The notes below the pieces were generated by a model that did no database searches, had not been told where the DNA came from, and saw nothing but the letters and a program-made list of their open reading frames with translations. Shown here piece after piece: positions 1,227 through 39,277 of a stretch of DNA of 64,000 nt. The position numbers were made by a program, and so were the translations under genes. This DNA is from Gammaproteobacteria bacterium (GTDB taxonomy: Bacteria; Pseudomonadota; Gammaproteobacteria; Porifericomitales; Porifericomitaceae). How positions within the stretch are numbered: the stretch's first letter is position 1; each line of letters begins with the position of its first letter. Where the stretch lies: the NCBI GenBank assembly GCA_014238615.1, contig JABAAT010000038.1, positions 78,363-142,362 on the forward strand, given 5' to 3'.

Positions 1227-1288
1227 TGATGACCCCTCTGTTTCATCCTGCCAGGAAGCAGGAAATAGCACAAATTGAGATTACACTA

Positions 1289-2904: not shown

Positions 2905-2932
2905 CCAGCCGGCAGCGTCCCGAGGTCCCCCC

Positions 2933-3637
2933 TCAGATCCCCAGGTATGCCTTGCGTACATGCTCATTGCCCATAAGCTCCACGGCCGTTCCCTGCATCC
3001 TGAGGGAACCGGTCTCCAGGACATAGCCATAGCGCACCAATTCCAAGGCCAACTCGGCGTTCTGCTCCACCAGCAGGATGGAGATGCCGCGTCCCTGTAT
3101 TTCCCGTAGCAGGCGCGCGATGCCCTGCACGATCAACGGCGCCAGGCCCAGCGAAGGCTCGTCCAGCAGCAGCAGGCGGGGCCGCGCCATGAGAGCCCGG
3201 CCGATCGCGAGCATCTGCTGTTCACCGCCGCTCATGGTGCCGGCCTGCTGCCCTCCCCGCTCCTTAAGGCGCGGCAGGTGCTGGTAAACCCATTCCAGGT
3301 CGGTGTTGATGCCCGCGCGATCACGGCGCGTGTAGGCGCCGAGCTCCAGGTTTTCGCGCACGCTCAGATCCTTGAAGACGCGGCGGCCCTCCGGAACATG
3401 GGCGACGCCCAGGCGCACGATGCGATCCGCGGACAAGCCGTCCAGGCGCTGATCCCCGAAGTGGATTTCACCCCCGCGGATCGGCACCAGGCCGGAGATC
3501 GCGCGCAGCGCGCTGCTCTTGCCGGCACCGTTAGAGCCGATGATGGCGGAAAAACCGCCCTCCTCCACGCGCAGGGACAGGCCACGCAGCGCCGCCACCT
3601 TGCCGTAGCTTACATGCACATCATCCACCCTCAGCAT
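2933..3637 (-). CDS. HAAT-family ABC transporter ATP-binding protein (LivF/UrtE-like)
   Basis: Walker A GSNGAGKS, signature MSGGEQQML and Walker B LLLLDEPSLGLAP. Last gene of a five-gene transporter operon. Confidence 0.85.
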   Translation of the reverse strand: MLRVDDVHVSYGKVAALRGLSLRVEEGGFSAIIGSNGAGKSSALRAISGLVPIRGGEIHFGDQRLDGLSADRIVRLGVAHVPEGRRVFKDLSVRENLELGAYTRRDRAGINTDLEWVYQHLPRLKERGGQQAGTMSGGEQQMLAIGRALMARPRLLLLDEPSLGLAPLIVQGIARLLREIQGRGISILLVEQNAELALELVRYGYVLETGSLRMQGTAVELMGNEHVRKAYLGI

Positions 3638-4425
3638 GATGCGCGCTCCGTCCCACCGGCTGCGCTGCCCAGGTAGGCCTCAAGCACCGCCGGATCACGG
3701 CGGACCGACTCCGGCGTGCCCTCCGCCAGGAGCCGCCCGAAGTTCAGCACGGTGACGAAGTCGCAGAGCCCCATCACGGCTTTCATGTTGTGCTCCACCA
3801 GCACGATGGTGATCCCCGAGCGCCGCACCTTGCGGGTCAGTTCCATCATGTGCGCGGTCTCCGCCGGATTCATGCCCGCGAAAGGCTCGTCCAGCAGCAG
3901 CAGCCGCGGTTTTGCCAGCAGGGCGATACCCAAGGCCAGGGCCCGCTGCGAACCGAGCGGCAGTTCGGAGGCCAGCTGCGCCCGGCGTTCCCGCAGGCCC
4001 ACGAAATCCAGGATGCGCCCGGCAGCCTGCCGCTGCCGCTCCAAACGCTCCCGATCCAGGCCGAGCAGCGCCCTGAACAGGCCGGAGGACGCATGCAGGT
4101 GGCAGCCGGCCTCCAGGTTCCGCATGACGCTCAACTCCTGGAACAAGGTGGTCTCCTGGAAAGTGCGCACCACCCCGAGGCCGGCGATCTCGTACGGAGG
4201 GCGCCCGGAAATGGGGCGGCCGGCCAGCAGGATCTCCCCGGCACCGGGCCGGTAAAAACCGGCGATGTTCTTGAACAGGGTGCTCTTGCCGGCGCCGTTC
4301 GGCCCGATCAGGCCCCTGATCTCCCCCTCCCGCACCTGGAAACTGACCCGATCCAGGGCCACCAGGCCGCCGAAGCGCTTGCAGAGCCCCCGCACTTCCA
4401 GCAGGGGTGCCGCCGCCGTCGCCAT
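3631..4425 (-). CDS. HAAT-family ABC transporter ATP-binding protein (LivG/UrtD-like)
   Basis: GPNGAGKST and LLLLDEPFAGMNP motifs. Start taken at MATAAAPLLEVRGL; 7-bp overlap with the downstream ATPase. Confidence 0.85.
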   Translation of the reverse strand: MATAAAPLLEVRGLCKRFGGLVALDRVSFQVREGEIRGLIGPNGAGKSTLFKNIAGFYRPGAGEILLAGRPISGRPPYEIAGLGVVRTFQETTLFQELSVMRNLEAGCHLHASSGLFRALLGLDRERLERQRQAAGRILDFVGLRERRAQLASELPLGSQRALALGIALLAKPRLLLLDEPFAGMNPAETAHMMELTRKVRRSGITIVLVEHNMKAVMGLCDFVTVLNFGRLLAEGTPESVRRDPAVLEAYLGSAAGGTERASC

Positions 4426-4426
4426 C

Positions 4427-5413
4427 TCAGCCTTGCGCCGCCGCGACGCGCCGCCGCCAAAGCCCACGCAGACGGCCCGGCAGGCTCTCCAGGCCGTCCG
4501 GAAGGAAACGCATGCTGAGGAGCAGGATCAACCCGTAGATGGCCGGACGCCATTCGTCATACTGGCGGAAGATCTCGTTCAGAACAGACAGCACCACGAC
4601 CCCGATGACAGGACCGGCGAAGGTGCGGGTGCCGCCGATAATGACCCAGACCAGTATGTAGAGCATCTCGCCGATGGCAAACTGGTTCGGATTGATGCTG
4701 CCCAGGTAGTGCACGAAGAGGGCGCCCGCGAGGCCGGCGAAGAAGGCCCCGCAGGCGAAGGCCAGGGTCCGATAGCGCCAGCTGTTCACACCCACCGCCT
4801 CGGCCAGGGAGGGCTGCCAGTGCACCATGTGCAGGGTCAGACCGATGCGCGAGTGCTCCAGGCGATAGAGCAGCAGCAGGGAGACACAGGTCACGACCAG
4901 GAGCAGCAGGTAAAAAGGGATCGGCTCAACGAAGGACAGGGGCTGCTCCAGGAAAGGCAGTTGCAGCTCCAACGGGGGGATCAACTTCAGGCCCTTGGGG
5001 CCCCCGAAAGGATAGACAAAGTACTTCCAGGCCAGGCGGACGGCCTCGCCGGCGGCGTAGGAACCGATGAGGAAATAAAAACCCCGCATGCGCAGCAGCG
5101 GGAAACTGAGCAGCAGGGCGACGGCGGCGGTCAATAAAGCCGCCAGCGGTATGGACAGCCAGACGAGGAGGTCGGCGCGCTTGCTCAGCAGGGCGCTGGC
5201 ATAGCCGCCGCAGCCCATCAGCACCATGTGTATCAGCGACCATTCACCGCTTAGGGTCACGAGGCGGTAAGAAACCACCAGCATCACGTCCAGGAGCAGG
5301 AAAATCATGAAGTCCTGCCGGTGAAATGGCAGGAAGAAGGGCAGCGCGGCGAGCGCGGGCAGCAGTACCGCCGCCGCCAGCCACCAGCCGTGCCGGCGGG
5401 AGGCGCTATTCAC
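4427..5413 (-). CDS. HAAT-family ABC transporter permease (LivM/UrtC-like)
   Basis: Polytopic membrane protein with LivM-type conserved segments (GGYASALL..., INPNQFAIGEMLYILVWVIIGG). Confidence 0.8.
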   Translation of the reverse strand: MNSASRRHGWWLAAAVLLPALAALPFFLPFHRQDFMIFLLLDVMLVVSYRLVTLSGEWSLIHMVLMGCGGYASALLSKRADLLVWLSIPLAALLTAAVALLLSFPLLRMRGFYFLIGSYAAGEAVRLAWKYFVYPFGGPKGLKLIPPLELQLPFLEQPLSFVEPIPFYLLLLVVTCVSLLLLYRLEHSRIGLTLHMVHWQPSLAEAVGVNSWRYRTLAFACGAFFAGLAGALFVHYLGSINPNQFAIGEMLYILVWVIIGGTRTFAGPVIGVVVLSVLNEIFRQYDEWRPAIYGLILLLSMRFLPDGLESLPGRLRGLWRRRVAAAQG

Positions 5414-6276
5414 GCAGCCGGGATCCCATGAGGCCGGTGGGTTTGATCACCAGCACCAGCAGCATGATGAACAGGCCCAGCATCGTGGCCAGGGTGCCGC
5501 TGTAATAGGTCGTGACGAAAGTGTGGAAGAAGGCGTACAGCACGGCTGCAAGCACGGCCCCCCGGATGCTGCCGATGCCGCCTACGATGGCCACGATGAA
5601 GGCCGTGATGATCACCGCGTGTCCCATGTAGGGCTCGACGCGCACCAGCGGCGCCATGAGAGCGCCCGCGGTGCCGGCCAGGGCGGCGCCCAGGCCCATG
5701 GCGAACATGCCGATGCGCCGCACACTGATGCCCTGCAGCGCGGCTGCCTCCCGATCCATGGAAACCGCGCGCAGCGCCCAGCCCAGGCGGGTCCAGGTCA
5801 GCAGCCAGCCCACCGCGGCGAGCAGTCCCAGGGACACCACCAGGGCCACCGCACGCTGTACGGGAATGCGCACCTCGAAGGGCAGTTCCAGGGTGCCCGG
5901 AAAGGCCGGCGGCACATGCTTCATCAGGCCCAGGCCGCCGATCTGCACCGCGAGCACCTGCAGGATGAAAAGCAGGCCGATGGAATTGATGAGACCGCCC
6001 AGCGGGTTCTCCCGGAAGGGCTGAAACAGGAAGCGCTCCATGCACAGCCCAAGCAGGCACACGATGAGCGCCGCCGCGAGCAGCGCGAGCGGAAAAGGAA
6101 GCCCCTGTCCGGCGTACAGCAGCCAAACCGTGTAAGCCCCCACCATCACCATCTCGCCATGGGCGAAGTTGATAATGCCCATGACGCCGAAGATCAACAC
6201 CAGGCCCACGGCCCAGAGGCTGAAAAAGCCGCTCTGGACCAGCGCGTTGGCGATGCTTTGCAGTACCAGTTCCAAG
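5406..6276 (-). CDS. HAAT-family ABC transporter permease (LivH/UrtB-like); start uncertain, possibly the TTG at ~6276
   Basis: LELVLQSIANALVQSGFFSLWAVGLVLIFGVMGIINFAHGEMVMVGAY matches the LivH/UrtB N-terminus. No ATG lies near the expected start; the ORF track extends to 6416 into the binding-protein gene. Confidence 0.75.
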
Positions 6277-6340
6277 GTCTTGATGTTCTTATTCGTGGGG
6301 ACGGGCGGGGCCGCGGCGCGACCCCGCCCGCATGGCAGAC

Positions 6341-7615
6341 TCAGCCCTGCTGGTAATGCATCAGCCCCATGGCTTCCATGTGCTTGACCAGGAGATCCTT
6401 GTAACAGGACCACCATTCGGGGATGCTGCGGAACTCCTCGATGCGCGCCCGTCCGTCACGCACGGTGACCACCGGCCAGTTGCCCACCAGGGCGTTGTCA
6501 ATGCCCCAGAGCTCCTCGCCCCACCAGGAGGCGTCGCCGAAGGCATGCGGCGCGCGGCCGCCCTGCTTCATGGCCTCCAACACCGCCAGGGGCTCCACCG
6601 AAGCGGCCTGCTCCGCCGCCGCCTTCCACAGGTCCATGATGGAAGCGTACTCCCAGGCCACCGCCGACCACTGTCCGGGGTGGCGCTCAACGAACTTCTC
6701 GTAGAAGTCCTTCGGCCGCTTGAAGTTGATGAAGTCCTGGCGCAGGGCCGGGTCGTCGAAGTCCGGGAACTGGAAGATGAAGCCCTCCACGAACTCCTTG
6801 CTGGTCTTCTCGATGACGTCCTGGTAATTGTCAAAGGTACAGGAGATGATCTTGCCCTTGAAGCCCTGGTGAAAGAGTTGCTCCGTGATCAGGTTGACGT
6901 AATCCGCGTAGCAGGTGTCCAGGCAGACGATGTCCGGCCCGGAAGCCAGCATGGAGGTCACGACGGGGGCAAAGTCGGTGGTCGACGGATCGAAGATGTT
7001 CTGATCCACCACGTCGATGCCGGCCGCCTCGAAGGCCGCCAGGTAGGTCGCCACCGAGGGCAGCCCCAGGGAGTCATTCTGGGCGCAGATCGCGGCCCGC
7101 TTCAACTCCGGGAAGTTCTGGGCCATCCATTCCACTCCGGTCACGTTGTAGATCGGATGCACCTCGCAGGGAGCAATGTGGTAGGGAGCGTCCGGCGACA
7201 GGTCACTGGGCAACAGCGTGGAAGTCAGCAGCTTGCGCCGGGTGGCGAAAGGCTGCACCGCCGGCCAGGTGTCGCCGCCGAGCATCATGACGAACTTGAC
7301 ATCATGCTCGCCGACCAGCTTCTTCATACCCTGCAGGGCCTTGTCGGGAAGGTATTCGTTGTCGTAAGAAACGAACTCCACCTTGTAGTTGTCGCCGCCG
7401 ATGCGCAAACCGCCGGCGCGGTTCACCTCCTCGGCCCAGATTTCGCAGCCCTACAGACCCGGCAGGCCCCAGGCCGCCACCTCACCGGTAAGAGGCGCCA
7501 AAAAGCCGATCCGCACGGTGCGCGAAGCGGCACGCGCGGCGCCCGGCAGGCCACCGCAAACCATGACGCCGCCGAGCGCGGCGGCGCGCAACAATTCTCT
7601 ACGTGTAATAGCCAT
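6341..7615 (-). pseudogene. Periplasmic substrate-binding protein of the HAAT (amide/urea/branched-chain) ABC transporter with a Tat signal peptide; interrupted by an in-frame TAG at 7451-7453
   Basis: ORF 7451..7648 (MAITRRELLRAAALGG...TVRIGFLAPLTGEVAAWGLPGL*) and ORF 6341..7426 are in the same frame. The hand-read junction is ...GLPGL-TAG-GCEIWAEEVNRAGGLRIGG. AGGAGG RBS 7 nt before the ATG at 7613-7615. A Tyr is expected at the stop position by homology. Confidence 0.6.
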
Positions 7616-7729: not shown

Positions 7730-8329
7730 TCAGGGGGTTTCCTCCTCCATGGGCCGCAGCTCCGCATAACGCCCGCGGAAATACAGCAGGGGCTCGGCGC
7801 GCGGCGCGTAGTGCACCACGCTGTCCACCTGTCCTACGAAAATGACATGGTCTCCTCCCTGGTAGGTGTAGTGCGTGCTGCAATCAAACACGGCCAATGA
7901 GTCCGGGAACCAGGGGCTGCCGTTCGGGGTTTGCCGCCATTCCGTGGTCGCCCATTTATCGCCCATGGGCACCGCGAAGCGCGTCGCCAGGTCGCGCTGT
8001 CGAGTGGACAGGACGCTGACCGCGAAATGCGCGGTGGAGAGGAAGGCTCGCAGGCTGTAGGCGCCCTTGTCCAGGCTGAACAACACCAGGGGCGGCTCAA
8101 GGGACACCGAACTGAAGGAATTCGCGGTGATGCCCAAGCGCTCCCCACGCTGCCCGCCGGCGGTGATGATGGTCACACCGGTGGCGAAATTGCCGAGAAC
8201 CCCACGCAGCTCCCCGCGGCTGAGCGGCGCCCGGGATTCCACAACGGGTTTTGACTCGGAGGATTCCGACACGATCTCCAGGGAGCTTCTTTCCGAGCGG
8301 CCGGCCGGGGAATGATCAGAGGCGGCCAT
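7730..8329 (-). CDS. NAD(P)H-dependent flavin reductase (HpaC/RutF-type, flavin_reduct domain)
   Basis: LRGVLGNFATGVTIITAGG...SFSSVSLEPPLVLFSL is typical of the small flavin reductases that partner two-component monooxygenases. Confidence 0.8.
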   Translation of the reverse strand: MAASDHSPAGRSERSSLEIVSESSESKPVVESRAPLSRGELRGVLGNFATGVTIITAGGQRGERLGITANSFSSVSLEPPLVLFSLDKGAYSLRAFLSTAHFAVSVLSTRQRDLATRFAVPMGDKWATTEWRQTPNGSPWFPDSLAVFDCSTHYTYQGGDHVIFVGQVDSVVHYAPRAEPLLYFRGRYAELRPMEEETP

Positions 8330-8331
8330 CG

Positions 8332-8660
8332 CTCAGGATTGCACCCGCTCTTTGCGCGGGTCGTAGAAGGGGCTCGGCACCACGCGCGCCGGGATGCGCT
8401 TCTGGTGACCGTCCAGCTTGCCCACCTCCACGGCGGCGCCCTCCGCGGCGATGCCGCGGCGCGGGATGCAGGATCTCGCGGGACGATGCGCCTTCACGGA
8501 TCCAGCACCGTGAGTCGGTCACCGGCCTGCAGTCCGAGCCGGATAGAGCCGCCGCCGTGGCCCTGGCAGCGCTCCCGCCCAGGCGGCAGGGCCGCCTGCC
8601 TTGACAGGGACGGCGTGGCCGGAGTGAGTACGGGGGATGCCGCCATTGGCAGGCCTTTAA
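8332..8660 (-). pseudogene. Collapsed remnant of a second tdm-like (DUF1989-GcvT) gene: ~57 N-terminal codons joined out of frame to ~40 C-terminal codons
   Basis: Bases 8332-8470 align to the 3' end of the intact gene at 14943-15075 (VEVGKLDGHQKRIPARVVP.PFYDPRKERV). Bases 8470-8660 align to its 5' end at 17150-17318 (MAxxxxLTPxxPxxSRxAxxPPGRERxQxxGGGSIxxGLQAGDRLTxLDP). Roughly 80-85% nucleotide identity, so this is not a recent copy. Confidence 0.6.
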
Positions 8661-10069
8661 GCCTTCCCGGAACCAGGTAGTGCCTTTTCGGACTCCGCCA
8701 CGAGGCGTTCGCCCAAGGCGCGTTTGGACTCCTTGTCAAGCTTTTTCAACTCGTTGTTCAGTACCCTTTCGTTGAGCGCCTGGTTCCAGTAGTCCAGCGA
8801 TTCGAAACCGAGCAGCACGGACTTGCCGACGAACTGGCGCAGCACTTCGTTGGTCGGTCCCATCACCCAGCCCGCCTTGCCGTCCCGCAGGTAGCGTTCA
8901 ATGCCCAAGGCCGGCTTGTAAGCGGTGCCGCCGCAGGCATGCAGCATCTTGTCCGAGACGTGGGCCACGTTCTTGGCGGCGGTGAACTTCACCTGCCACA
9001 TCCAGTGCAACAGGTCGGAGCGGGGCAGCGCCGAGACATCCCGGTGGATGGACCAATCGCAGTCACCGGTACAGCTGTCCAGGGCCTGGGCCATCATGAA
9101 AACCATGGCGCGCGAGGCGTTCGTGTCGATCAGCGCCTCCACGACGTAGTCCTGGATCGTCGGATAATCCGCCACCCGCATGCCCACATCAGCGTGTTTC
9201 TTGCGGGTGGTGTGCACCTTGGCGATATCAATGAGACCGAGTGAAATGCCGTTCCAACAGGAAGAAGACATGAGCAGGAAGAACGGATCCACCGCCTCGT
9301 CGTTGGAAACGGCGCCGTCACCCACGGGCCCCACGAGCCGGGCGGCCGGTATCTCGACCGCGTCGATCTGGATGGGGCCGGACTGGTTGCCGCGCAGGCC
9401 CAAACCGTCCCAGCTGGCCGGATCCGACTTGACCTCGTCGCCGAGAATCAGGAAGCAGGACAGGTTCGAATAATCGCCGCCGAAATCCGGGCTGGTGGTC
9501 TGTACGATGTACCAGTCCGCGAAACCGCCCGAAGTGGTCCAGGATGCCTTCTTATGAACCCGCCAGCCATGTTCGATACGCTCCGCCCGCGAGCTGACCG
9601 GGTACCAGAAGTGCGAGCCGGTCTCCGGATCGGAATAGGACAGGGTGCCGATCAGCACCTCCTTGTCCAGGCGCCCCATGAGCTCCTGGATCACCTGGTT
9701 GTCGTGATGACGCAGCAGGGCCGCGGCCACGGCGCCCGCGTGCATGGTATAGCACATGGCGGTGCTGGCACAGCCGTAGCGCGCGATGGTCTCCACCACC
9801 ATCGCCACACAGGCATGGTTCTCCCCCATGCCGCCCAACTCCTCCGGCACCAGCAGCCCCAGCACCCCGAGTTCGGCCAGCGCCTCAAAGTTCTTGCGCG
9901 GGTAAAGCAGCTTCTTGTCGCTCTCCACGGCGTTCTCGCGCAGAGTGGTGTGACACAGTTCGATCAGATCGGCCTGCAGGCGTTGCTGCTTGTCCGTCAG
10001 CACCCACTGCGGGTCATATTCATAACCCAACCCCCAAAAAGGTTCCGTACCCCATTTCTTGTTGCTCAT
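8657..10069 (-). CDS. Acyl-CoA-dehydrogenase-fold flavin-dependent oxygenase (group-D two-component monooxygenase-like: DszC/SfnB/IBAH family)
   Basis: ACAD N/M/C-domain signatures (LAELGVLGLLVPEELGGMGENH, ...GTLSYSDPETGSHFW..., ...YLRDGKAGWVMGPTNEVLRQF). Start taken at MSNKKWGT with a GGGGAG RBS. A flavin reductase lies 330 bp downstream in the same orientation. Confidence 0.75.
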   Translation of the reverse strand: MSNKKWGTEPFWGLGYEYDPQWVLTDKQQRLQADLIELCHTTLRENAVESDKKLLYPRKNFEALAELGVLGLLVPEELGGMGENHACVAMVVETIARYGCASTAMCYTMHAGAVAAALLRHHDNQVIQELMGRLDKEVLIGTLSYSDPETGSHFWYPVSSRAERIEHGWRVHKKASWTTSGGFADWYIVQTTSPDFGGDYSNLSCFLILGDEVKSDPASWDGLGLRGNQSGPIQIDAVEIPAARLVGPVGDGAVSNDEAVDPFFLLMSSSCWNGISLGLIDIAKVHTTRKKHADVGMRVADYPTIQDYVVEALIDTNASRAMVFMMAQALDSCTGDCDWSIHRDVSALPRSDLLHWMWQVKFTAAKNVAHVSDKMLHACGGTAYKPALGIERYLRDGKAGWVMGPTNEVLRQFVGKSVLLGFESLDYWNQALNERVLNNELKKLDKESKRALGERLVAESEKALPGSGKA

Positions 10070-10611
10070 TCGTCTTACTCCCCAGCTTTCAGCCCACTTC
10101 AGCGTACTGATGAAGTGGATGCGGGTGTGTTGATGTGAACCAGAACAGGCCAAGGTCATGTCTGCATCAGGGATTATCGCCGGATGCAGGTTGTCTTTCA
10201 AGGTACCTATCCAGCATACCTGCCATTTTTTAGGTGGATCATGCTATATCTTTATGGATAGAGCCGAGATCAGACCGCCGCTGGCGCCTCCCAGGCGCCC
10301 AGGATAGTGTCGCATCCGACCGGGGCGCTTCGAAAGCAGGAGCTTCTTATCCCCGCTTTCGGCCGGTGGTGTCTGTCCCTGGTGTGCGGCGTTTGGCCGA
10401 CCTGAAAGTCGGCGGGCACGTAGGCCAGGTCATCATTTTGCGTCAAGTCGGCGGCCAGGCGGCCGATGACGGCGCCGGCACGCGGCAACAGGGAGGTTTT
10501 CCTTCGCGGGATGCTCCAGTCCCATGCCCCGCTCCACCTCGTGGGGGCGCGGCACGCGCCCCTTAACTCTCGTTGACCTGATGATCAAGCCAGGCCACAA
10601 GTCAGCCTGGG

Positions 10612-12600
10612 TCAGGCCAGCCCCAATTCCTGCTTTCTGGGCAGCGCCCACCTGTTGATCAGATGGTCCATTGCAAGCCCCATAAAGGCGACACACAAGC
10701 CTAACACCAAGCCTTTACCCATATCGCTCTCGGAAAGCGCCTGCATGATTTCCTGTCCCAAATCCTGGGTTCCGATAAAGGCGCCGATAATCACCATGAA
10801 CAAAGCAAATATAACCGTTTGATTCACACCAAGCATAATATGTGGAAGCGCCAACGGCAGTTCGATCTTAAACAGCCTTTGTATCCTGCTCACACCCGAC
10901 ATCGTCGCCGCCTCCTGTAAACCCTGTGGAACACTGCGCAAACCCTCTATGGTGTAGCGCGTGGCTGGAATCGAGGCATAAATAATCACCGCGGTAAGCA
11001 CCGACACATCGTTGACCTGGAACAGCATGATCACGGGGATTAAATAGACGAAAGATGGAAAGGTCTGAAGAGTATCGCAAATCAACAGCGCGTACCTGGT
11101 CGTGAAGCTTCTGCGTGAGGCGATGATACCTATCGATAAACCAATGAACACAGAGATGAGCACCGAAAAACTGACCATGTAAGCGGTAATCATCGCTTTA
11201 TTCCACCAGCCGGTCAAGGCGATGAAGGCAAAGAAAGCGCCCACGATGAGCGCGGAGCGCACCCCGCCAAGGAACAGGCCGGCGCCCATCAGCAGGGCAA
11301 ACACCGCAACCATCGGCAGCGATGTATAAGCGTCCCGCATGGGAATTAATACTTCCACCAACAGGAAGGTTCGGAATTGCTGTAACCCGGAATACCAATT
11401 CCTCACAACCCAATCCACCATGAAATCCCAAAAAGGAGCAGTGGTGATCGCGACGGAGCGGGGAATCTTATAAGCATAAGGAAAAAACTTTGAGACGATG
11501 ATGCTGAGCAGCGTCAATCCGACAATGGCAAGCCAATATTTATAGCGTACATAAAAAGGCAGATCGGCGCGATAATCAGGCTGTTTGTGCGCCCAGGCCA
11601 GGGACAGCCTGTCAAGCACAATGGCGATCAGGACAATGGAAATACCAAGCTCCAGGGCCTTCCCAATCTTCAGGCTTCCCAACATCACCAGCAATGTATA
11701 ACCCAATCCGGAAGCGCCGATAAACGAAGCGATCACCACCATGGCCAGGCATTGCATGATCACCTGGTTCACACCAATCATGATGTCGTGCCGGGCCGAG
11801 GGTATCTGCACCTGGGTCAACAGCTGCAGGTTATTGCACCCACTCATCCTGCCGGATTCGAGCACCTCCACGGACACTTTCTTCAATCCCAGCAAAGTCA
11901 AGCGAATCATCGGTGGAGTCGCAAAAATAATCGTCGCAATCGCACCGGCGTTATCACCGATACCAAAGAAAACCAATACCGGAATCAGGTAGGAAAAATG
12001 GGGAAGCGATTGGGCGACATTCAACAAGGGAGCCAGCGTCAGCTCCACGACCTTGTACCTGTAAGCCAACACCCCCAGGGATAAGCCCAGAACCAGGGCA
12101 ATAGGCACCGCAACGAACACCAGGGATAAAGTACGCATGGAATCCTGCCATTGCCCGAAGACGGCCAGGTAGATCACGCTAAGGCCCGCAAGCAACGATA
12201 ATCTCCAGCCCTGCAGGGCGTAACCTATCACAAAGGCAATTCCCGCCACGGCGGTCCACGGCAGCGCCGGCAGGGCGAATCCCTTCCGCCCTCCCAGAAG
12301 AATGTTACGCACTACGTCAATACTCGACTGCAGCGCATCCGACACACCCCTGCTTATCAACATCACCGCCGTTGTCTCTTCCGCAAGATCTTCTTCCACG
12401 TCGATGACTGTAATCTTCCAGAATTCATCCTGCAGGAAGAACAAAGCCTGGTTCAGCCACTCGGCTATCGGCAATGTGACGGAGGCGGGCCACGTGAGCA
12501 GCCAACCCGGCATCACACCCTTCCCTGCCACCAATACGGCGAATACGATAAAGAGAAGGGCAACCTGTATTGACTTACGGTCTGTGGGCAGGTGTACCAT
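10612..12600 (-). CDS. Glycine-betaine/TMAO-type ABC transporter permease with two fused ProW-like domains (TmoW-like)
   Basis: 662-aa polytopic protein with two BPD_transp_1 cores (EAA-like loops). Confidence 0.8.
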   Translation of the reverse strand: MVHLPTDRKSIQVALLFIVFAVLVAGKGVMPGWLLTWPASVTLPIAEWLNQALFFLQDEFWKITVIDVEEDLAEETTAVMLISRGVSDALQSSIDVVRNILLGGRKGFALPALPWTAVAGIAFVIGYALQGWRLSLLAGLSVIYLAVFGQWQDSMRTLSLVFVAVPIALVLGLSLGVLAYRYKVVELTLAPLLNVAQSLPHFSYLIPVLVFFGIGDNAGAIATIIFATPPMIRLTLLGLKKVSVEVLESGRMSGCNNLQLLTQVQIPSARHDIMIGVNQVIMQCLAMVVIASFIGASGLGYTLLVMLGSLKIGKALELGISIVLIAIVLDRLSLAWAHKQPDYRADLPFYVRYKYWLAIVGLTLLSIIVSKFFPYAYKIPRSVAITTAPFWDFMVDWVVRNWYSGLQQFRTFLLVEVLIPMRDAYTSLPMVAVFALLMGAGLFLGGVRSALIVGAFFAFIALTGWWNKAMITAYMVSFSVLISVFIGLSIGIIASRRSFTTRYALLICDTLQTFPSFVYLIPVIMLFQVNDVSVLTAVIIYASIPATRYTIEGLRSVPQGLQEAATMSGVSRIQRLFKIELPLALPHIMLGVNQTVIFALFMVIIGAFIGTQDLGQEIMQALSESDMGKGLVLGLCVAFMGLAMDHLINRWALPRKQELGLA

Positions 12601-12634
12601 GGGGTTGCCTGTCGGGGACTAAGCGCCGGACCCC

Positions 12635-13672
12635 TTAGCTGGGCTTCCCGAATAAAATATGCAGTATCCTCTTGCAGTTTAAAACACCGATAATTTCCCC
12701 CTGCCCATCAACCACGGCGACCGGTTTGGTTGCAGACAACACCCGCTCGGCAACCTGCTCAATGATGACATCGGCTGCAACGGTGAATTCACTCAACTCC
12801 TGCCCTTCCTGCTTCGGCTCCATCACGGACGCCGTGGTCAGGACCCGCTCGCGCGGGACTTCGTTGGTAAATTTTTTCACATAGTCGGTCACCGGATTGA
12901 GTACAATATCAACCGGGGCGCCGATTTGCTCAACTCTGCCGTGGTACATAATGGCGATTCTATCCGCCAATCGCAGGGCCTCATCAAAATCATGGGTAAT
13001 AAACACGATGGTCTTGTTCAGCAGGGACTGCAGGCGCAGAAATTCGTCCTGCATTTCACGGCGAATCAGCGGATCCAAGGCTGAGAAAGGCTCATCCAAA
13101 AACCAGATATCGGGTTCCACCGCCAGCGATCGGGCGATGCCTACACGCTGCTGCTGCCCTCCCGACAACTCTCGCGGGAAACTCTTTTCGCGACCCACTA
13201 AGCCCACCAATTCGATCATTTCCCGCGCACGCCCGTGGCTGTCAGCGGTCTTTACACCTTTGACCTGCAGGGGAAAAGCAATATTTTCCAGAACGGTTTT
13301 ATGCGGGAGTAAGGCGAAATTCTGGAACACCATCCCCATCTTATGACGGCGAAGCTCTATCAGATCCTTGTTGCGCATCTTCAACAAGTCTTGACCGTCG
13401 ATGAGGATTTCCCCCGCGGTCGCGTCAGTCAGGCGGGAAATACAACGTACCAAGGTCGATTTACCCGAGCCGGACAGACCCATCACCACCAGCATTTCTC
13501 CCTGGTGTACCTCCAGGGAAACATTATTCACGCCAATAATGCAGCCTGCCTTACTGAACTCTTCCTCATCTACCCGGCCCTTGCTTTCTTCCAGCAGTTT
13601 CCGGGCGTTCTCCCCAAAAATTTTGTACACGGAACGGCATTCTATAACCGCCTGTGCCTTCTCTTCCGCCAT
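12635..13672 (-). CDS. Glycine-betaine/TMAO-type ABC transporter ATP-binding protein (ProV/TmoV-like)
   Basis: GLSGSGKST, LSGGQQQRVGIARSL and IWFLDEPFSALD motifs, followed by a C-terminal CBS-like tail. Confidence 0.85.
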   Translation of the reverse strand: MAEEKAQAVIECRSVYKIFGENARKLLEESKGRVDEEEFSKAGCIIGVNNVSLEVHQGEMLVVMGLSGSGKSTLVRCISRLTDATAGEILIDGQDLLKMRNKDLIELRRHKMGMVFQNFALLPHKTVLENIAFPLQVKGVKTADSHGRAREMIELVGLVGREKSFPRELSGGQQQRVGIARSLAVEPDIWFLDEPFSALDPLIRREMQDEFLRLQSLLNKTIVFITHDFDEALRLADRIAIMYHGRVEQIGAPVDIVLNPVTDYVKKFTNEVPRERVLTTASVMEPKQEGQELSEFTVAADVIIEQVAERVLSATKPVAVVDGQGEIIGVLNCKRILHILFGKPS

Positions 13673-13770
13673 GCGCGCTTAACCTCTAGAGAGGATCCAA
13701 TTACCAAAGGCACTTGCCGCGGCAAACGCGCGCGGCAAGTACCCCTGGTAACGGATAGTTTTTCGTCTGA

Positions 13771-14715
13771 TTAATCTTTAAGCCATGGTTTCCAGGCAGC
13801 TTCATTGTCTGCAAGCCACTTATCCGCAGCCTCTTCGTGCTCTAAACCGTCGATATCCACCAACTTCGCCATGGTCGCGATTTGCACCTTGTCGAAATCA
13901 ATGCGCGTCAGCAGTTTGTAGGCTGCCGGCCACTTTTTCGGCATTTGATAATAGGCCGCCTTCTTCAACCAACCCGCCGGCGGGCTGCCGCAAACACCAT
14001 CACCGCCATCTTCCTTCCTGCAACCTTCATAATACTCCGGGAACTCGATAAAGTCACCCCCGTAAAGCGCATCGGTGAAATTAGGCGACCAGTTGAACAG
14101 TACGATGGGCTTGTTGTTTTTCTTGGCGGCTTCCAATTCCGCCCATAAGGCAGCCGCGGAACCGGCGAACACAGCCTTATAATCCATCTTTAAGGCTTCA
14201 ATGCGGTCCTTGGTCTCCTGCCCGTGCCAATCAGCCGGACCATCCAGGTAACGGCCCAAAGGCGCGGTTTCCGGGCTGCTGAATGTCTCCGCACAGGCGT
14301 TGAGCGCCTCCCAGCTGGGCAATCCCGGACAAAACTCGGTCACGTAAGCAGGATACCACCATTCTTCCCGGGTTTTTGCCGTATGGGTGCCCGCATCAAT
14401 GATGCCGCCCTTGTCCAATGCCTCGTTAAAGGATTTTCCAAAGGTACTTTGCCAAACTTCCATAGAGACGGTGACATCGCCACGGCGAATCGATTCATAC
14501 ACCGCCTGGCTGTCCGCCGGTTTGTACTCAACATTATCACCGAGTTTCTCAAACAACTTACCGACAACGTAAGACATGACGATCTGACTGGACCAGTTGT
14601 GCGTCGGGAGGATAATCGGATCCTTGGAATCCGCAGCCACCGCCCATCCTGACAGACCAGCCAGCAGCATACTGACAAGCGCCACCGGCAATAGTTTTCT
14701 AAGCATGAATTTCAT
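13771..14715 (-). CDS. OpuAC-family periplasmic substrate-binding protein (glycine betaine/choline/TMAO-binding, TmoX-like)
   Basis: Signal peptide MKFMLRKLLPVALVSMLLAGLSGWAVA, then an OpuAC-like fold sequence. First gene of the transporter operon adjacent to the tdm-like gene. Confidence 0.8.
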   Translation of the reverse strand: MKFMLRKLLPVALVSMLLAGLSGWAVAADSKDPIILPTHNWSSQIVMSYVVGKLFEKLGDNVEYKPADSQAVYESIRRGDVTVSMEVWQSTFGKSFNEALDKGGIIDAGTHTAKTREEWWYPAYVTEFCPGLPSWEALNACAETFSSPETAPLGRYLDGPADWHGQETKDRIEALKMDYKAVFAGSAAALWAELEAAKKNNKPIVLFNWSPNFTDALYGGDFIEFPEYYEGCRKEDGGDGVCGSPPAGWLKKAAYYQMPKKWPAAYKLLTRIDFDKVQIATMAKLVDIDGLEHEEAADKWLADNEAAWKPWLKD

Positions 14716-14942
14716 AATTCAGATACTCCCTAAAAATGACCTGCAAAGCCCTTCCTAGATAAGGTCCTTGCTACAGTGATAGCTTGCGCCATGAACCCGG
14801 TACACCGCCCGCTACAGGCGACGCATCGGGATTTTCTTATCGCGCGGGACACTCCGTATAGCCGTATAGCACCGCGCCCTTGAAAATACGAAAAATTCCG
14901 GCCGGGATGTCGAACAGGAATGGGGCGGAGGCAGTCACCGCG

Positions 14943-17318
14943 TCAAGCCCGCACCCGTTCCTTGCGTGGGTCGTAGAAGGGGATCGGCACCACGCGCGCC
15001 GGAATGCGCTTCTGGTGACCATCCAGCTTACCCACCTCCACGGCAGCACCCTCCTCGGCGGCACTGACATCCATGCGGCATAAGGCGATATTGCGGCGCA
15101 GGACAGGCGAGCGCACGGCGCTGGTCACCACCCCTGTCTGGGCACGACCCTGGTGCACGCAGTCACCGTGCCCGGCCGCTTCGTTGCCCTCCAGTTCCAG
15201 TCCTACCAAGCGTCGCTGCGGGTGCGCCTTGCGCTTTTCCAGGGCCGCCCGGCCCACGAAATCGTCCTGCTTGCCGCGCAGCGGCACGCAAAAGCCGATG
15301 CCGGCCTCAAAAGGATCGGTTTGATCGCAGAATTCGTAGCCGGCGAAGACCAGGCCGGCCTCAATCCGCAGCATATCCAGGGCCTCCAGGCCCAGGGGCG
15401 CCAACCCCAGGGGCTGTCCGGCCTTCCAAAGCGCGTCCCAGACTTCAACAGCGGCGTCCGGATGACACCAAAGTTCATAACCCAGCTCACCCGTATAGCC
15501 GGTACGCGAAATCATCAGGGGAACACCCTTGAGATCCCCCAGGCGACCGATCGTAAAACGGAACCACTGCAGTTCCTCCAGGGTCGGTTGCGCCGGGGGC
15601 GTCCAGATCAGTTCGCGCAGCAATTCACGCGAGCGCGGCCCCTGCACGGCGATATTGTGGAGCTGATCCGTGGAGGATTTGACCCAAACCCGGTATTTCT
15701 TTTCCTTGGCCTGCTTGCGCAACCAGTCGCCGCCGTATTCCTCACCGCAGATCCAGCGAAAGTTATCGGCTCCAAGTCGGAATAAAGTACCGTCATCCAA
15801 CATGCCGCCGCTCGGGTAACACATGGCCGAGTAAACTACCTGCCCCACCGCCAGGCGCCGCACGTCGCGGGTGATCGACCACTGCATCAGCGCCTCCGCA
15901 TCCGGACCGAACACCTCAAATTTGCGCAACGGGGAAAGATCCATGACCGCAACGCGCTCCCGGCAGGCATGATACTCCTCGATGGTGCCGTATTCCTGGT
16001 AGGAAGTCGGGAGCCAATACCCCCGGTACTCAGTAAAACGCCGCGTCAGCGCGGAACTGCGGGGGTGAAAAGCCGTTTCGCGGGTCATTCGGGTCTCCGA
16101 GTCGGGGTGCAGACGGAAAGCAACGGCCTTGCTGAACATATGCCGTGAAGGATAGACTCGCACCTGCACATCGGTGGGATTCCAGCCATTCGCCGGATCA
16201 ATGTCGTCCGGGCAGGCCGAGGAAGAGCAGACCAAATCGGTCAGGGCGCGCAGCAACACGTAGTCGCCCGGACGGGACCAGGATTCATCCAGGTAAATAC
16301 TATTTGAATCATCAATACCGGTGTTGTAGAAAAAATTCACGGCCGGCCAGGCAGGGCGTGCCCGCACACCGTAATCCCGCAAGGCCGCGTTGAAGTTATC
16401 CGAACAGTTCGGGTGTCCGAAATAGCCACGTTCCTCGTAAAACCTGGCATAGCAGGCCAGGCCAAAGGTGTCGTGCCGGCCGCAGGTGTCACGCACCACC
16501 TCCAGCAAGGGGTTTAGATCCTGATCGTAGAACTTGGAGTACAGGCCGGGCTGCGGACAGGTAAAGCCCATCAGGGAGCGCGTGGCAGTGGCATCCAGGC
16601 TGTTCTCCCGGCCCGCCTCCAAGGGCGCGTGTGCGAAGGCCAGGAAGTCTGAACATTGGTGACCGGCGATATCCATCACCTGGATGTATTCTCCGGCACG
16701 CACCAGGTAGGCGTGCGCGGTACGCGCCTGGATACGCAGATCCAGGCGCGCTTCAGCCAAGGGCTCAGGCAGAGACTCAAGCGGGTTCGGAACCTCAATC
16801 GGATGCTCCCGATCCACGAAAGCGATCAATTCCGTGGCGGGCCGATGGCCGGCCACGGCGCCCTCTATCGGCATCGCACCGCCCACCGACACCAGGATGC
16901 AGTTGCAGGCCACCGCCGCGCGCAATTCCCGGCGCAATCCGGGCTCGGAGTCAGGCGCGAAGAGGCGCACGCCGCGCAGGTGTCCCCGATCGGCCACGGT
17001 CGCCTGGAGACGCTTGCGCAAACGCGCGGCGTTCGGATCCGCCGCCAACTGCAAGAGCGCCTCGCGTGCGGGTGGCAGATCGGAGGCATTCAACAGATTC
17101 GCGTCACTTTTCCCCGTCTCATCAAACACCAGGATCTCACAAGGCTGTGCGCCTTCCGGGTCCAGCAACGTAAGCCGGTCACCCGCCTGCAGACCGATCC
17201 AAATCGAGCCGCCGCCGGGGACCTGGTAGCGCTCCCGCCCGGGCGGCGGGGTCGCCAGCCTCGACAAGAACGGGGTGGCCGGGGGAACCGTCGGAGTCAG
17301 TGACAGGGCTACCGCCAT
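14943..17318 (-). CDS. tdm: DUF1989-GcvT fusion protein, trimethylamine N-oxide demethylase (Tdm)-like
   Basis: 791 aa. The N-terminal ~400 aa resemble the DUF1989/urea-carboxylase-associated family. The C-terminal ~380 aa form an aminomethyltransferase (GcvT) fold (RERVAVMDLSPLRKFEVFGPDA...GYTGELGYELW...). This is the architecture of characterised Tdm, next to a betaine-type transporter. Confidence 0.65.
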   Translation of the reverse strand: MAVALSLTPTVPPATPFLSRLATPPPGRERYQVPGGGSIWIGLQAGDRLTLLDPEGAQPCEILVFDETGKSDANLLNASDLPPAREALLQLAADPNAARLRKRLQATVADRGHLRGVRLFAPDSEPGLRRELRAAVACNCILVSVGGAMPIEGAVAGHRPATELIAFVDREHPIEVPNPLESLPEPLAEARLDLRIQARTAHAYLVRAGEYIQVMDIAGHQCSDFLAFAHAPLEAGRENSLDATATRSLMGFTCPQPGLYSKFYDQDLNPLLEVVRDTCGRHDTFGLACYARFYEERGYFGHPNCSDNFNAALRDYGVRARPAWPAVNFFYNTGIDDSNSIYLDESWSRPGDYVLLRALTDLVCSSSACPDDIDPANGWNPTDVQVRVYPSRHMFSKAVAFRLHPDSETRMTRETAFHPRSSALTRRFTEYRGYWLPTSYQEYGTIEEYHACRERVAVMDLSPLRKFEVFGPDAEALMQWSITRDVRRLAVGQVVYSAMCYPSGGMLDDGTLFRLGADNFRWICGEEYGGDWLRKQAKEKKYRVWVKSSTDQLHNIAVQGPRSRELLRELIWTPPAQPTLEELQWFRFTIGRLGDLKGVPLMISRTGYTGELGYELWCHPDAAVEVWDALWKAGQPLGLAPLGLEALDMLRIEAGLVFAGYEFCDQTDPFEAGIGFCVPLRGKQDDFVGRAALEKRKAHPQRRLVGLELEGNEAAGHGDCVHQGRAQTGVVTSAVRSPVLRRNIALCRMDVSAAEEGAAVEVGKLDGHQKRIPARVVPIPFYDPRKERVRA

Positions 17319-35543: not shown

Positions 35544-35622
35544 ACGGGACACCGGTTTTCCCCATCCGACAGCCGGCCCTTCACACGGTGCCGGGTGACC
35601 AGGCTTTTAAGGAGTCATTATC

Positions 35623-37409: not shown

Positions 37410-37452
37410 GGCGAGTACCCCGACCAACTCCCCCACCCTAAGGAACCTTAAC

Positions 37453-38841: not shown

Positions 38842-38878
38842 CACACTCCATCCCCGCAATACCGGAGAGCATCCCGCC

Positions 38879-39277
38879 ATGACGAAAAACCACCCCGATC
38901 CGGACCGCTTCCTGAAGGACACGGACCTGGAAAAACAACGCGAGAAAATGATCGGCCAACACATTGGCTACCGTTATGACGTCAACATGATGCCGGACTA
39001 CCAGCGGCTGACCCCCTTCCTGCGCAAGTACATGGAAACGATGGGCTGGGAGGATCTAAATTGGCTGGAGGACGTGCACATGGGCTACGAGGAACAGCGC
39101 GCGGCCGTGTTTGACCGCAATATCAACGGCTGGGTCGGTGTGCCGGAGGACATGGGGCTTCCCAAAGATCAACAGGCTCGGGACATGCTCGCCCGCGAAT
39201 TACTCGTGAAATTCCAGATGTCGCGCAACCACCCGCTGGTTGACTTGCGCAAGGCTTACGGCAAGTTCCGCCGCTAA
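38879..39277 (+). CDS. Hypothetical conserved protein downstream of the mgsC-like gene
   Basis: 132-aa ORF with balanced composition (not Ala/Arg/Pro-inflated), 37 bp after the mgsC-like stop, followed by a GC-rich hairpin. Confidence 0.5.
   Translation: MTKNHPDPDRFLKDTDLEKQREKMIGQHIGYRYDVNMMPDYQRLTPFLRKYMETMGWEDLNWLEDVHMGYEEQRAAVFDRNINGWVGVPEDMGLPKDQQARDMLARELLVKFQMSRNHPLVDLRKAYGKFRR

What the first reader, a model, noticed from the sequence alone, without database searches (positions are those of the whole stretch)
7730..10201. Candidate undescribed two-component flavin monooxygenase for methylated amines (ACAD-fold oxygenase + flavin reductase flanking a collapsed tdm paralog)
An acyl-CoA-dehydrogenase-fold oxygenase (8657..10069) and an HpaC-type flavin reductase (7730..8329) are co-oriented. 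They are separated only by the remnant of a second Tdm-like gene.

This implies the ancestral operon was oxygenase - TMAO demethylase - reductase. That operon sits directly between a TMAO-uptake/demethylation module and an amine/amide-type ABC importer, in an island that otherwise encodes the full N-methylglutamate route.

No characterised TMA monooxygenase (Tmm, an FMO) or DMA monooxygenase (DmmDABC) is visible in the window. ACAD-fold two-component enzymes are known to oxidise amines (the IBAH-type N-hydroxylases).

This pair is therefore a plausible non-canonical TMA->TMAO or DMA->MMA oxygenase.
Basis: partly seen in the sequence, partly recalled or inferred. Interest (0 to 1): 0.85.

Follow-up and report, generated by a model that had tools for sequence, protein, structure and literature searches.

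The report
Flavin monooxygenase pair tied to TMAO demethylase
An uncharacterised oxygenase with an acyl-CoA-dehydrogenase (ACAD) fold, plus its flavin reductase, sits next to the trimethylamine-oxide (TMAO) demethylase gene in bacteria of at least six phyla, so it is very probably an undescribed enzyme of methylated-amine breakdown, most likely oxidising trimethylamine (TMA) to TMAO.

Summary
Window 8657-10069 (-) encodes a 470-aa ACAD-fold protein. Window 7730-8329 (-) encodes a PF01613 flavin reductase (FR). Between them, 8336-8655 holds the N-terminal (~53 aa) and C-terminal (~56 aa) pieces of an internally deleted tdm paralog.

The inferred ancestral operon exists elsewhere. Of 49 homolog loci with full flanks, 42 (86%) carry a full-length tdm within 10 kb. 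It often overlaps or abuts the oxygenase gene in the order ACAD-tdm-FR. These loci come from Latescibacterota, Acidobacteriota, Gemmatimonadota, Alpha/Gammaproteobacteria, Verrucomicrobiota and Cyanobacteria.

The protein lacks both known ACAD catalytic glutamates. It scores far below every named family cut-off. In animals it occurs fused to an FNR-type reductase. It is therefore a group-D two-component flavin monooxygenase.

The substrate is not settled.
- TMA->TMAO is favoured (~0.5). In Labrys the pair sits in the Tmm slot of tmoP-[ACAD-FR]-tdm-dmmDABC. Tmm is depleted near ACAD-linked tdm. Group-D enzymes typically oxygenate heteroatoms.
- DMA oxidation remains a serious rival (~0.25). Three loci also carry Tmm, and most clusters lack any known DMA enzyme.

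I found no prior description in the searched literature.

The parts
8657..10069 (-). Oxygenase component: 470-aa ACAD-fold protein, proposed group-D flavin monooxygenase
   Evidence: Pfam ACAD N/M/C domains. No NCBIfam family reaches its cut-off. The MCAD-type catalytic Glu position is Gly404 and the IVD-type position is Phe. AF2 pLDDT 89 with an ACAD fold by Foldseek. Homologs are 73-80% identical in 341 species genomes.
8336..8655 (-). Remnant of a second tdm gene: N-terminal piece 8497-8655 and C-terminal piece 8336-8476, about 2 kb deleted internally, frames differ
   Evidence: tblastn with the intact Tdm and with 54 Tdm proteins from other loci.
7730..8329 (-). NAD(P)H:flavin reductase component (HpaC/Flavin_Reduct type), 199 aa
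   Evidence: PF01613, 141 bits. HpaC/C1/HsaB-like by NCBIfam. Homologs lie beside the oxygenase in 57 of 82 loci.
10173..10201 (-). Sigma-70-like promoter match about 100 nt upstream of the oxygenase start (weak evidence)
   Evidence: 10 of 12 matches, but 1 site found against 0.6 expected by chance.
14943..17318 (-). Intact TMAO demethylase (Tdm), the enzyme this pair is coupled to
   Evidence: NCBIfam NF053776, 1205 bits against a cut-off of 1100.
10612..14715 (-). TMAO ABC importer tmoX (13771-14715), tmoV (12635-13672), tmoW (10612-12600), directly upstream of the oxygenase. GC here is 0.54-0.59 against 0.63-0.70 in the flanks
2933..7426 (-). Liv/Urt-type ABC importer. Its binding protein (6341-7426) is a conserved neighbour of the oxygenase in 8 loci. 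Substrate unknown; possibly TMA or DMA
   Evidence: No close solved structure.
32622..33962 (+). 446-aa DAO-family flavoprotein ('DAO446'), candidate for the DMA->MMA step. It heads the gmaS-mgsABC-c5 block (34068-39268)

Best explanation
The two genes encode a two-component, group-D (ACAD-fold) flavin-dependent monooxygenase dedicated to methylated-amine catabolism and functionally coupled to TMAO demethylase.

Proposed mechanism:
1. The 199-aa reductase uses NAD(P)H to reduce free FMN or FAD.
2. The 470-aa oxygenase binds the reduced flavin and reacts it with O2 to form a C4a-hydroperoxyflavin.
3. It transfers one oxygen atom to the nitrogen of trimethylamine, giving TMAO.
4. Tdm converts TMAO to dimethylamine plus methylene-tetrahydrofolate.
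5. The N-methylglutamate pathway of the same island finishes the job.

On this reading the pair is a non-homologous replacement for the FMO-type TMA monooxygenase Tmm.

Shown: the fold, the loss of the dehydrogenase catalytic base, the reductase partnership, and the genomic coupling to tdm. Inferred: the monooxygenase chemistry and the identity of the substrate.

In this window the tdm copy that originally lay between the two genes has decayed. A second, lower-GC tdm next to tmoXVW presumably does that step now.
For: Two-component monooxygenase, not a dehydrogenase:
- ACAD fold.
- 'VMGPTNE' aligns with the ACAD 'IYEGTNQ' motif, so the catalytic Glu is Gly. The IVD-type base position is Phe. 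No Glu occurs at that motif position in any of 35 bacterial and animal homologs.
- A PF01613 reductase gene is found in 57 of 82 loci.
- In animals the same domain (37-56% identical) is fused to FAD_binding_6 + NAD_binding_1.

Coupling to Tdm:
- Full-length tdm lies within 10 kb in 42 of 49 full-flank loci, and within 300 bp in 24 loci.
- The ACAD stop and tdm start overlap in L084.
- At least five different gene arrangements occur across six phyla, including cyanobacterial ACAD-tdm modules set among housekeeping genes.
- ACAD is linked to tdm, not to the N-methylglutamate (NMG) pathway. Of 80 DAO446 loci, only one carries ACAD, and that one also carries tdm.

TMA as the specific substrate:
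- In Labrys (5 loci) the cluster is tmoP< ACAD> FR> tdm> dmmD> dmmA> dmmB> dmmC. Xanthobacter (3 loci) has a similar ACAD-FR-tdm-Dmm arrangement. A canonical DMA monooxygenase is therefore already present, and ACAD-FR occupies the slot Tmm holds in canonical clusters.
- Tmm is adjacent in 4 of 7 tdm loci without ACAD but in only 3 of 63 with ACAD (Fisher p = 0.001).
- Neighbourhoods {Tmm, tdm, IclR, DAO446} and {tdm, FR, IclR, DAO446} are otherwise alike.
- Known group-D enzymes oxygenate N or S heteroatoms or aromatic rings. This is established knowledge. A 2026 study shows group-D enzymes oxidising DMS and DMSO (PMC13352529).
- The animal fusion proteins occur in crustaceans, corals, a brachiopod and others. 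These animals have no Tdm or NMG pathway, and many accumulate TMAO (PMC5893861).
Against: - Three loci (Virgifigura deserti L033; Dongiaceae L040 and L043) carry a canonical Tmm (68-71% identical to Methylophaga FMO) between ACAD and tdm. There the pair would be redundant.
- 33 of 42 ACAD+tdm loci contain no known DMA->MMA enzyme. The step linking Tdm to the co-operonic NMG genes would then be missing unless DAO446 or another protein supplies it.
- TMAO importers lie directly beside the oxygenase in 9 loci, including this window. That also fits a role downstream of Tdm.
- Several animal carriers are freshwater or terrestrial.
- The Tmm-depletion statistic rests on 7 comparison loci that were selected through DAO446.
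- No biochemical data exist.
Confidence: 0.5

Rival explanations
1. The pair is a dimethylamine monooxygenase or demethylase (DMA -> methylamine + formaldehyde). It would be a non-homologous substitute for the haem enzyme DmmDABC, filling the step between Tdm and the N-methylglutamate pathway.
For: - 33 of 42 ACAD+tdm loci, and this window, have Tdm and the NMG genes but no Dmm.
- In one-strand operons such as mgdABCD-gmaS-mgsABC-c5-ACAD-tdm-FR-DAO446-amt, DMA->MMA is the one step needed to connect the parts.
- Three loci already have Tmm next to ACAD.
- TMAO importers sit beside the oxygenase.
- dmmDABC is known to be missing from many tdm-carrying bacteria (PMC5520151).
Against: - Labrys and Xanthobacter clusters carry a complete dmmDABC right after ACAD-FR-tdm.
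- Flavin hydroperoxides are not known to hydroxylate an unactivated N-methyl C-H in group-D enzymes. The flavin-dependent dealkylases I know of are TIM-barrel group C enzymes (my own knowledge).
- The animal homologs have no use for methylamine.
- DAO446, an amine-oxidase-type flavoprotein, is an alternative candidate for this step. It is found next to tdm-tmm without gmaS.
Confidence: 0.25
2. The oxygenase N-oxygenates both TMA and DMA, and Tdm demethylates both products (TMAO and N,N-dimethylhydroxylamine). ACAD + reductase + Tdm would then form a self-contained module taking TMA all the way to methylamine.
For: - It explains why ACAD-tdm is the only invariant core.
- It explains why most clusters lack both Tmm and Dmm (33 of 42) and why none has both.
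- It explains why minimal ACAD-tdm modules exist in cyanobacteria.
- Addition of either Tmm or Dmm in a few lineages would then be only partly redundant.
Against: - Purely inferential. I found no evidence that Tdm accepts dimethylhydroxylamine.
- The ACAD-linked Tdm proteins score as ordinary TMAO demethylases (1183-1205 bits).
Confidence: 0.1
3. The pair acts on some other substrate, or plays an accessory role for Tdm. Examples: another tertiary amine or sulfide whose product feeds Tdm, or reduced flavin used to keep the Tdm iron ferrous.
For: - A 48%-identical bacterial relative sits in a non-tdm context.
- Seven full-flank loci have the oxygenase as a lone gene among unrelated genes.
- Freshwater and terrestrial animals carry the fusion.
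Against: - An accessory role does not explain a 470-aa oxygenase conserved at 73-80% identity.
- In the Labrys clusters every other step of TMA catabolism is already assigned.
Confidence: 0.12
4. It is an ordinary acyl-CoA dehydrogenase that lies near tdm by chance or by inherited synteny.
For: Pfam ACAD domains. The best NCBIfam match is the Rv1679/FadE16 'acyl-CoA dehydrogenase' family.
Against: - The score of 205 is far below the cut-off of 600.
- Both catalytic-base positions lack Glu.
- Reductase partner and animal fusion.
- tdm linkage in 86% of loci, in different arrangements, across six phyla.
Confidence: 0.03

Closest known systems
Tmm, bacterial FMO-type trimethylamine monooxygenase (class B flavoprotein monooxygenase)
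   Same: Proposed reaction (TMA + O2 + NAD(P)H -> TMAO). Same place in gene clusters: next to tdm, TMAO transporters and dmmDABC. Same flavin-hydroperoxide chemistry.
   Different: No sequence or fold relationship. tblastn with Methylophaga FMO finds nothing in the window. Tmm is a single-component NADPH/FAD enzyme, whereas this is a two-component ACAD-fold enzyme with a separate reductase.
Group-D two-component flavin monooxygenases (DszC, SfnB, HsaA, C2-HpaH, isobutylamine N-hydroxylase, nitrososynthases DnmZ/KijD3)
   Same: ACAD fold without the dehydrogenase catalytic base. Separate HpaC-type flavin reductase. Heteroatom oxygenation is expected.
   Different: Only about 20-23% identical to any solved member. 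About 25 extra N-terminal and 50 extra C-terminal residues. It forms a tight, isolated clade: one 50%-identity cluster, with the next full-length relatives at 45-52% and then about 30-36%. None of the known members acts on C1 methylated amines.
DmmDABC, haem-dependent dimethylamine monooxygenase
   Same: Possible alternative function (DMA -> MMA). Same pathway and the same neighbourhoods.
   Different: Unrelated proteins (PAS-haem alpha subunit PF11927, FNR/2Fe-2S reductase, GcvT-like DmmD). They co-occur with the ACAD pair in Labrys and Xanthobacter rather than replacing it.
Rv1679/FadE16 family 'acyl-CoA dehydrogenase' (NCBIfam NF049984)
   Same: Best-scoring named family (205 bits), full-length alignment.
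   Different: Score is one third of the family cut-off (600). Those proteins are about 370-410 aa and about 30-36% identical. I know of no established function for that family.

Membership tests
Group-D two-component flavin monooxygenase | Acyl-CoA-dehydrogenase fold | tested here: met
   Pfam ACAD N/M/C. AF2 model pLDDT 89, pTM 0.90. Foldseek TM 0.82-0.90 (target-normalised) to ACAD-fold structures including 5z8t and DszC 3x0y.
Group-D two-component flavin monooxygenase | Absence of the dehydrogenase catalytic glutamate | tested here: met
   Gly404 aligns with the Glu of the 'YEGT' motif. Phe aligns with the IVD-type base position. No Glu occurs at the motif in 35 homologs. Assignment of the motif positions rests on my knowledge of MCAD and IVD.
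Group-D two-component flavin monooxygenase | Cognate NAD(P)H:flavin reductase | tested here: met
   PF01613 gene 328 bp downstream in the window. Present in 57 of 82 loci. FNR-type reductase domain fused in animal homologs. Not adjacent in cyanobacteria.
Group-D two-component flavin monooxygenase | O2 activation by reduced flavin with substrate oxygenation | not testable with these tools
   Needs an enzyme assay.
Acyl-CoA dehydrogenase (true dehydrogenase) | Catalytic Glu base and a family-level HMM score | tested here: not met
   The best equivalog scores 205 bits against a cut-off of 600.
Tmm (FMO-type TMA monooxygenase) | FMO fold and sequence with FAD and NADPH Rossmann motifs | tested here: not met
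   No similarity. tblastn of the validated Methylophaga FMO finds no hit in the window. Analogy of function only.
DmmDABC dimethylamine monooxygenase | HODM alpha (PF11927), DmmA-family and FNR/2Fe-2S subunits | tested here: not met
   No such genes in the window. They are present as separate genes in the Labrys loci.
SfnB / DszC sulfur-acquisition oxygenases | NCBIfam equivalog score above cut-off | tested here: not met
   SfnB 63 bits vs 431. DszC 42 bits vs 850. No sulfur genes in the conserved neighbourhood.
Amine N-hydroxylases / nitrososynthases (IBAH, DnmZ, KijD3) | Close sequence relationship to characterised members | tested here: inconclusive
   DnmZ (4zxv) matches at only E 1e-10, 44 bits, weaker than ordinary ACADs. 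Same superfamily but not the same family.

The most novel reading that the evidence does not exclude
The family is a second, ACAD-fold type of TMA N-oxygenase shared by bacteria and marine invertebrates. In bacteria it would form, with Tdm, a portable two-step module that replaces Tmm, and that perhaps, by also handling DMA, bypasses the missing DMA monooxygenase. In crustaceans, corals, brachiopods and others, the reductase-fused version would be the unidentified enzyme that makes the osmolyte and piezolyte TMAO.
Probability: 0.3. Interest if true: 0.9.

Novelty: new variant of a known kind. Interest (0 to 1): 0.78.

Why it matters
Methylated amines are a large nitrogen and carbon flux in soils and oceans, and they are precursors of climate-active aerosols. 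The accepted aerobic route relies on Tmm, Tdm and DmmDABC. Many tdm-carrying bacteria lack one of these enzymes. The absence of Dmm has been called a metabolic bottleneck (PMC5520151).

A conserved, uncharacterised oxygenase fixed next to tdm in soil, freshwater and marine lineages gives a concrete candidate for the missing activity. It would change how tmm- or dmm-based gene surveys are read. It is directly testable in cultured carriers: Labrys, Xanthobacter, Dongia deserti, Virgifigura deserti and Leptolyngbya.

The fused animal homologs raise the possibility of an unrecognised route to TMAO in invertebrates.

Tried and rejected
- The first AF2 run, on 20 close homologs, gave pLDDT 55 and was discarded. 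A second run with animal homologs in the alignment worked.
- Fold search could not separate oxygenases from dehydrogenases. All ACAD-fold structures were about equally close.
- PDB sequence and profile searches found no close solved relative.
- The Liv-type binding protein has no informative solved relative, so its ligand could not be inferred.
- Ten literature searches found no description of an ACAD/reductase pair linked to tdm.
- I tested whether DAO446 is specific to the TMA pathway, which would have left TMA oxidation as the only free role for the pair. Instead it is mostly part of a gmaS-mgsABC block without tdm. That argument is therefore only partial, although DAO446 also occurs beside tdm-tmm without gmaS.
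- The small third gene of the cyanobacterial modules matches no query, including the reductase and Tdm.
- Neighbours in the tdm-less loci were uninformative.
- The promoter match upstream of the oxygenase is not above chance.
Full report
**What is in the window.**
- The region holds three co-oriented elements on the minus strand. The first is a 470-aa protein with all three acyl-CoA-dehydrogenase (ACAD) domains (8657-10069). The mechanical ORF runs on to a TTG at 10201, but 19 homologs align from the ATG at 10069. The second is a 199-aa PF01613 flavin reductase, FR (7730-8329).
- The third element lies in the 327-bp spacer between them. tblastn with the window's own intact Tdm (14943-17318; NCBIfam TMAO demethylase, 1205 bits against a cut-off of 1100) hits 8655-8497 (Tdm residues 2-54, 62% identity). 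It also hits 8476-8336 (residues 736-791, 70% identity), in a different frame. This is a tdm paralog that has lost about 680 internal codons.
- The remnant is no more than 62-70% identical to any Tdm compared. It is therefore an old paralog, not a recent partial copy.
- Upstream lie tmoW, tmoV and tmoX, then the intact tdm, then mgdDCBA. Downstream lies a Liv/Urt-type ABC importer. Further along are a DAO-family gene, gmaS, mgsABC, a small conserved ORF and an Amt transporter.
- The rest of the window is housekeeping. tblastn with a validated FMO-type Tmm and with Labrys DmmDABC finds nothing in the 64 kb.
- The window comes from a metagenome-assembled scaffold.

**The oxygenase is not an ordinary ACAD.**
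- The best NCBIfam match is the Rv1679/FadE16 family at 205 bits against a cut-off of 600. SfnB, HsaA, DszC and C2-HpaH score 34-63 bits.
- The motif 'VMGPTNE' aligns with the ACAD motif 'IYEGTNQ', so the MCAD-type catalytic glutamate is Gly404. The position of the isovaleryl-CoA-dehydrogenase-type base is Phe (which motif positions carry the base is from my knowledge of MCAD and IVD). No homolog has Glu at the motif.
- An AF2 model built on a 35-sequence alignment reached pLDDT 89 and pTM 0.90. It superposes on ACAD-fold structures. The top hit is a deposited 'flavin-containing monooxygenase' (5z8t, 23% identity) and DszC ranks 24th. True dehydrogenases are equally close, so the fold alone does not decide.
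- In a library of 1.84 billion representatives the family collapses into a single 50%-identity cluster. A few full-length relatives follow at 45-52%, then generic 380-410-aa ACADs at about 30-36%. It is a tight, isolated clade.

**Comparative genomics gives the main result.**
- A scan of one genome per species found relatives in 341 genomes. The best 80 are 73-80% identical. They come from Latescibacterota, Acidobacteriota, Gemmatimonadota, Alpha- and Gammaproteobacteria, Candidatus Udaeobacter and Obscuribacterales. Later look-ups added Leptolyngbya and picocyanobacteria-like contigs.
- Of 82 non-redundant loci, 63 contain a full-length tdm (45-72% identical to the window's). Of the 49 loci with at least 9 kb on both sides, 42 do (86%). 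The gap to tdm is at most 300 bp in 24 loci, and 18 have the order ACAD-tdm on one strand. Chance placement within 10 kb would be about 0.4% per locus.
One example is mgdABCD-gmaS-mgsABC-c5-ACAD-tdm-FR-DAO446-amt-FTHFS in a Latescibacterota chromosome, where the ACAD stop overlaps the tdm start.
- The linkage survives rearrangement. Observed orders include ACAD-FR-tdm, ACAD> tdm< FR>, FR-ACAD with tdm a few kb away, and ACAD-tdm-small ORF in cyanobacteria.
- A flavin reductase gene is present in 57 of 82 loci.
- The reverse check also holds. Of 80 metagenome loci fetched with the DAO-family protein, 40 show gmaS and only one shows the oxygenase, and that one also has tdm. The oxygenase therefore follows tdm, not the N-methylglutamate (NMG) genes.

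**Independent evidence for an oxygenase-reductase system.**
- The closest relatives outside the bacterial clade are animal proteins of about 770 aa. In these the same domain (37-56% identical) is fused to FAD_binding_6 + NAD_binding_1, an FNR/cytochrome-b5-reductase module.
- The lobster gene is multi-exon, spans 16 kb on a 13-Mb scaffold and lies next to a chitin-binding protein gene. It is not contamination.
- Three non-homologous ways of supplying reducing power occur: an HpaC-type partner, a fused FNR domain, and no adjacent reductase in cyanobacteria. This is typical of enzymes that accept reduced flavin.

**Which substrate?** Two steps of the standard route have no assigned enzyme in this island: TMA->TMAO and DMA->MMA.

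Evidence for TMA oxidation:
- In five Labrys loci the cluster reads tmoP< ACAD> FR> tdm> dmmD> dmmA> dmmB> dmmC. Three Xanthobacter loci show a similar ACAD-FR-tdm-Dmm arrangement, with DmmC detected in one of them. tmoP, tdm and dmmA pass their NCBIfam cut-offs and dmmC matches PF11927. A canonical DMA monooxygenase is therefore already there, and the pair takes the position Tmm has in canonical clusters.
- Among tdm loci without the oxygenase, 4 of 7 have Tmm adjacent. Among those with it, 3 of 63 do (Fisher p = 0.001; small and non-random sample).
- Neighbourhoods {tmm, tdm, iclR, DAO446} and {tdm, FR, iclR, DAO446} differ essentially by that swap.
- Group-D enzymes are known for heteroatom oxygenation and aromatic hydroxylation. 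A 2026 study found group-D enzymes oxidising DMS and DMSO (PMC13352529).
- The animal carriers have no Tdm or NMG pathway. [quoted passage not shown]

Evidence for DMA oxidation:
- Three loci (Virgifigura deserti and two Dongiaceae) carry a canonical Tmm between the oxygenase and tdm.
- 33 of 42 full-flank ACAD+tdm loci have no known DMA enzyme, although tdm is co-operonic with the NMG genes.
- TMAO importers flank the oxygenase in nine loci, including this window.
- dmmDABC is known to be absent from many tdm-positive bacteria (PMC5520151).
- The DAO-family protein could supply the DMA step, but it is mainly part of a gmaS-mgsABC block found without tdm. Its role is therefore open.

No locus has both Tmm and Dmm together with the oxygenase. 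This leaves room for a dual-substrate N-oxygenase working iteratively with Tdm.

My estimates are: TMA oxidation about 0.5, DMA oxidation about 0.25, the iterative module about 0.1, other or accessory roles about 0.12, and a true dehydrogenase about 0.03.

**Local history.** The tmoXVW-tdm segment has markedly lower GC (0.54-0.59) than its flanks (0.63-0.70). One reading is that a TMAO uptake and demethylation cassette arrived by transfer beside the resident ACAD-tdm-FR operon. That made the resident tdm redundant, and it then decayed. The oxygenase and reductase stayed intact, which implies that their function is not supplied by the incoming cassette.

**Novelty and limits.** Ten full-text searches found no description of this pairing. 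The library does not cover most subscription journals. Everything about catalysis is inferred. Whole-genome presence of tmm and dmm in carrier genomes could not be examined. Gene calls in the fetched loci came from my own GC-frame heuristic, which agreed with the available database gene calls for L084 but fails on low-GC contigs.

Noticed in passing
P0121 (Homarus americanus XP_042236428.1; locus L166 8001-24178) and about 60 other animal proteins: Animals carry a ~770-aa fusion of this oxygenase domain (37-56% identical) with an FNR/cytochrome-b5-reductase domain, often in several copies. Carriers include decapods, a stomatopod, amphipods (among them the hadal Hirondellea gigas), barnacles, krill, an ostracod, an isopod, an annelid, a brachiopod, a chiton and stony corals. 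All are annotated as uncharacterised or mis-named (ACAD9-like, fadE25-like). This is a possible invertebrate TMAO-forming enzyme.
   Followed up: partly
window 32622-33962 (+) and 38897-39268 (+); loci L086-L165: A 446-aa DAO-family flavoprotein heads a conserved block DAO446-gmaS-mgsABC-c5(~130 aa, no Pfam)-c9(~198 aa, no Pfam) in dozens of metagenome loci. These include SAR11-like low-GC contigs (L149, L164: tmoX< tmm> .. tdm< DAO446> gmaS). It also lies beside tdm-tmm-iclR without gmaS (L139, L151). It co-occurs with mgdABCD, so it is not simply a replacement NMG dehydrogenase. It is a candidate for the missing DMA-oxidising enzyme.
   Followed up: partly
L167 10001-13855; L168 and L169 10001-13716: Cyanobacteria (Leptolyngbya sp. 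NK1-12 and an abundant picocyanobacterium-like lineage) have a compact module: oxygenase, a short Tdm (607-619 aa) and a conserved 156-168-aa protein with no detectable family. No flavin reductase is adjacent. In the picocyanobacterial contigs the module sits among housekeeping and photosystem genes.
   Followed up: partly
window 10001-16000: GC drops to 0.54-0.59 across tmoW-tmoV-tmoX and part of tdm, against 0.63-0.70 on either side. This suggests the TMAO uptake/demethylase cassette was acquired by transfer, which would explain why the older tdm copy at 8336-8655 became dispensable.
   Followed up: no
L033 12928-14280; L040 11581-12912; L043 12766-14097: A canonical FMO-type Tmm (68-71% identical to Methylophaga FMO) lies between the oxygenase and tdm in Virgifigura deserti and two Dongiaceae MAGs. 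Otherwise syntenic relatives (L027, L030) lack it. This is the main observation against the TMA-oxidase reading.
   Followed up: partly
window 1-2967 and L001 17103-20159: Next to the Liv-type importer lie a 300-aa protein with no family, a class-I glutamine amidotransferase/Peptidase_C26 gene (1289-2095, +) and a second glutamine-synthetase-like gene that runs off the window start. This looks like a gamma-glutamylation/hydrolysis pair for another amine. A similar GATase follows DAO446 in L139.
   Followed up: no
window 23922-24641 (-) and 26378-27178 (-): Two TorF-family putative porin genes lie just beyond mgdA, inside the methylated-amine island. They may be outer-membrane channels for these substrates.
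   Followed up: no
window 6341-7426 (-); L004, L007, L018, L019, L020, L023, L035: The Peripla_BP_6 binding protein of the Liv-type ABC importer is 60-69% identical in seven other loci and is always directly beside the oxygenase, in both orientations. It has no close solved relative. It may be an importer for the oxygenase's substrate.
   Followed up: partly
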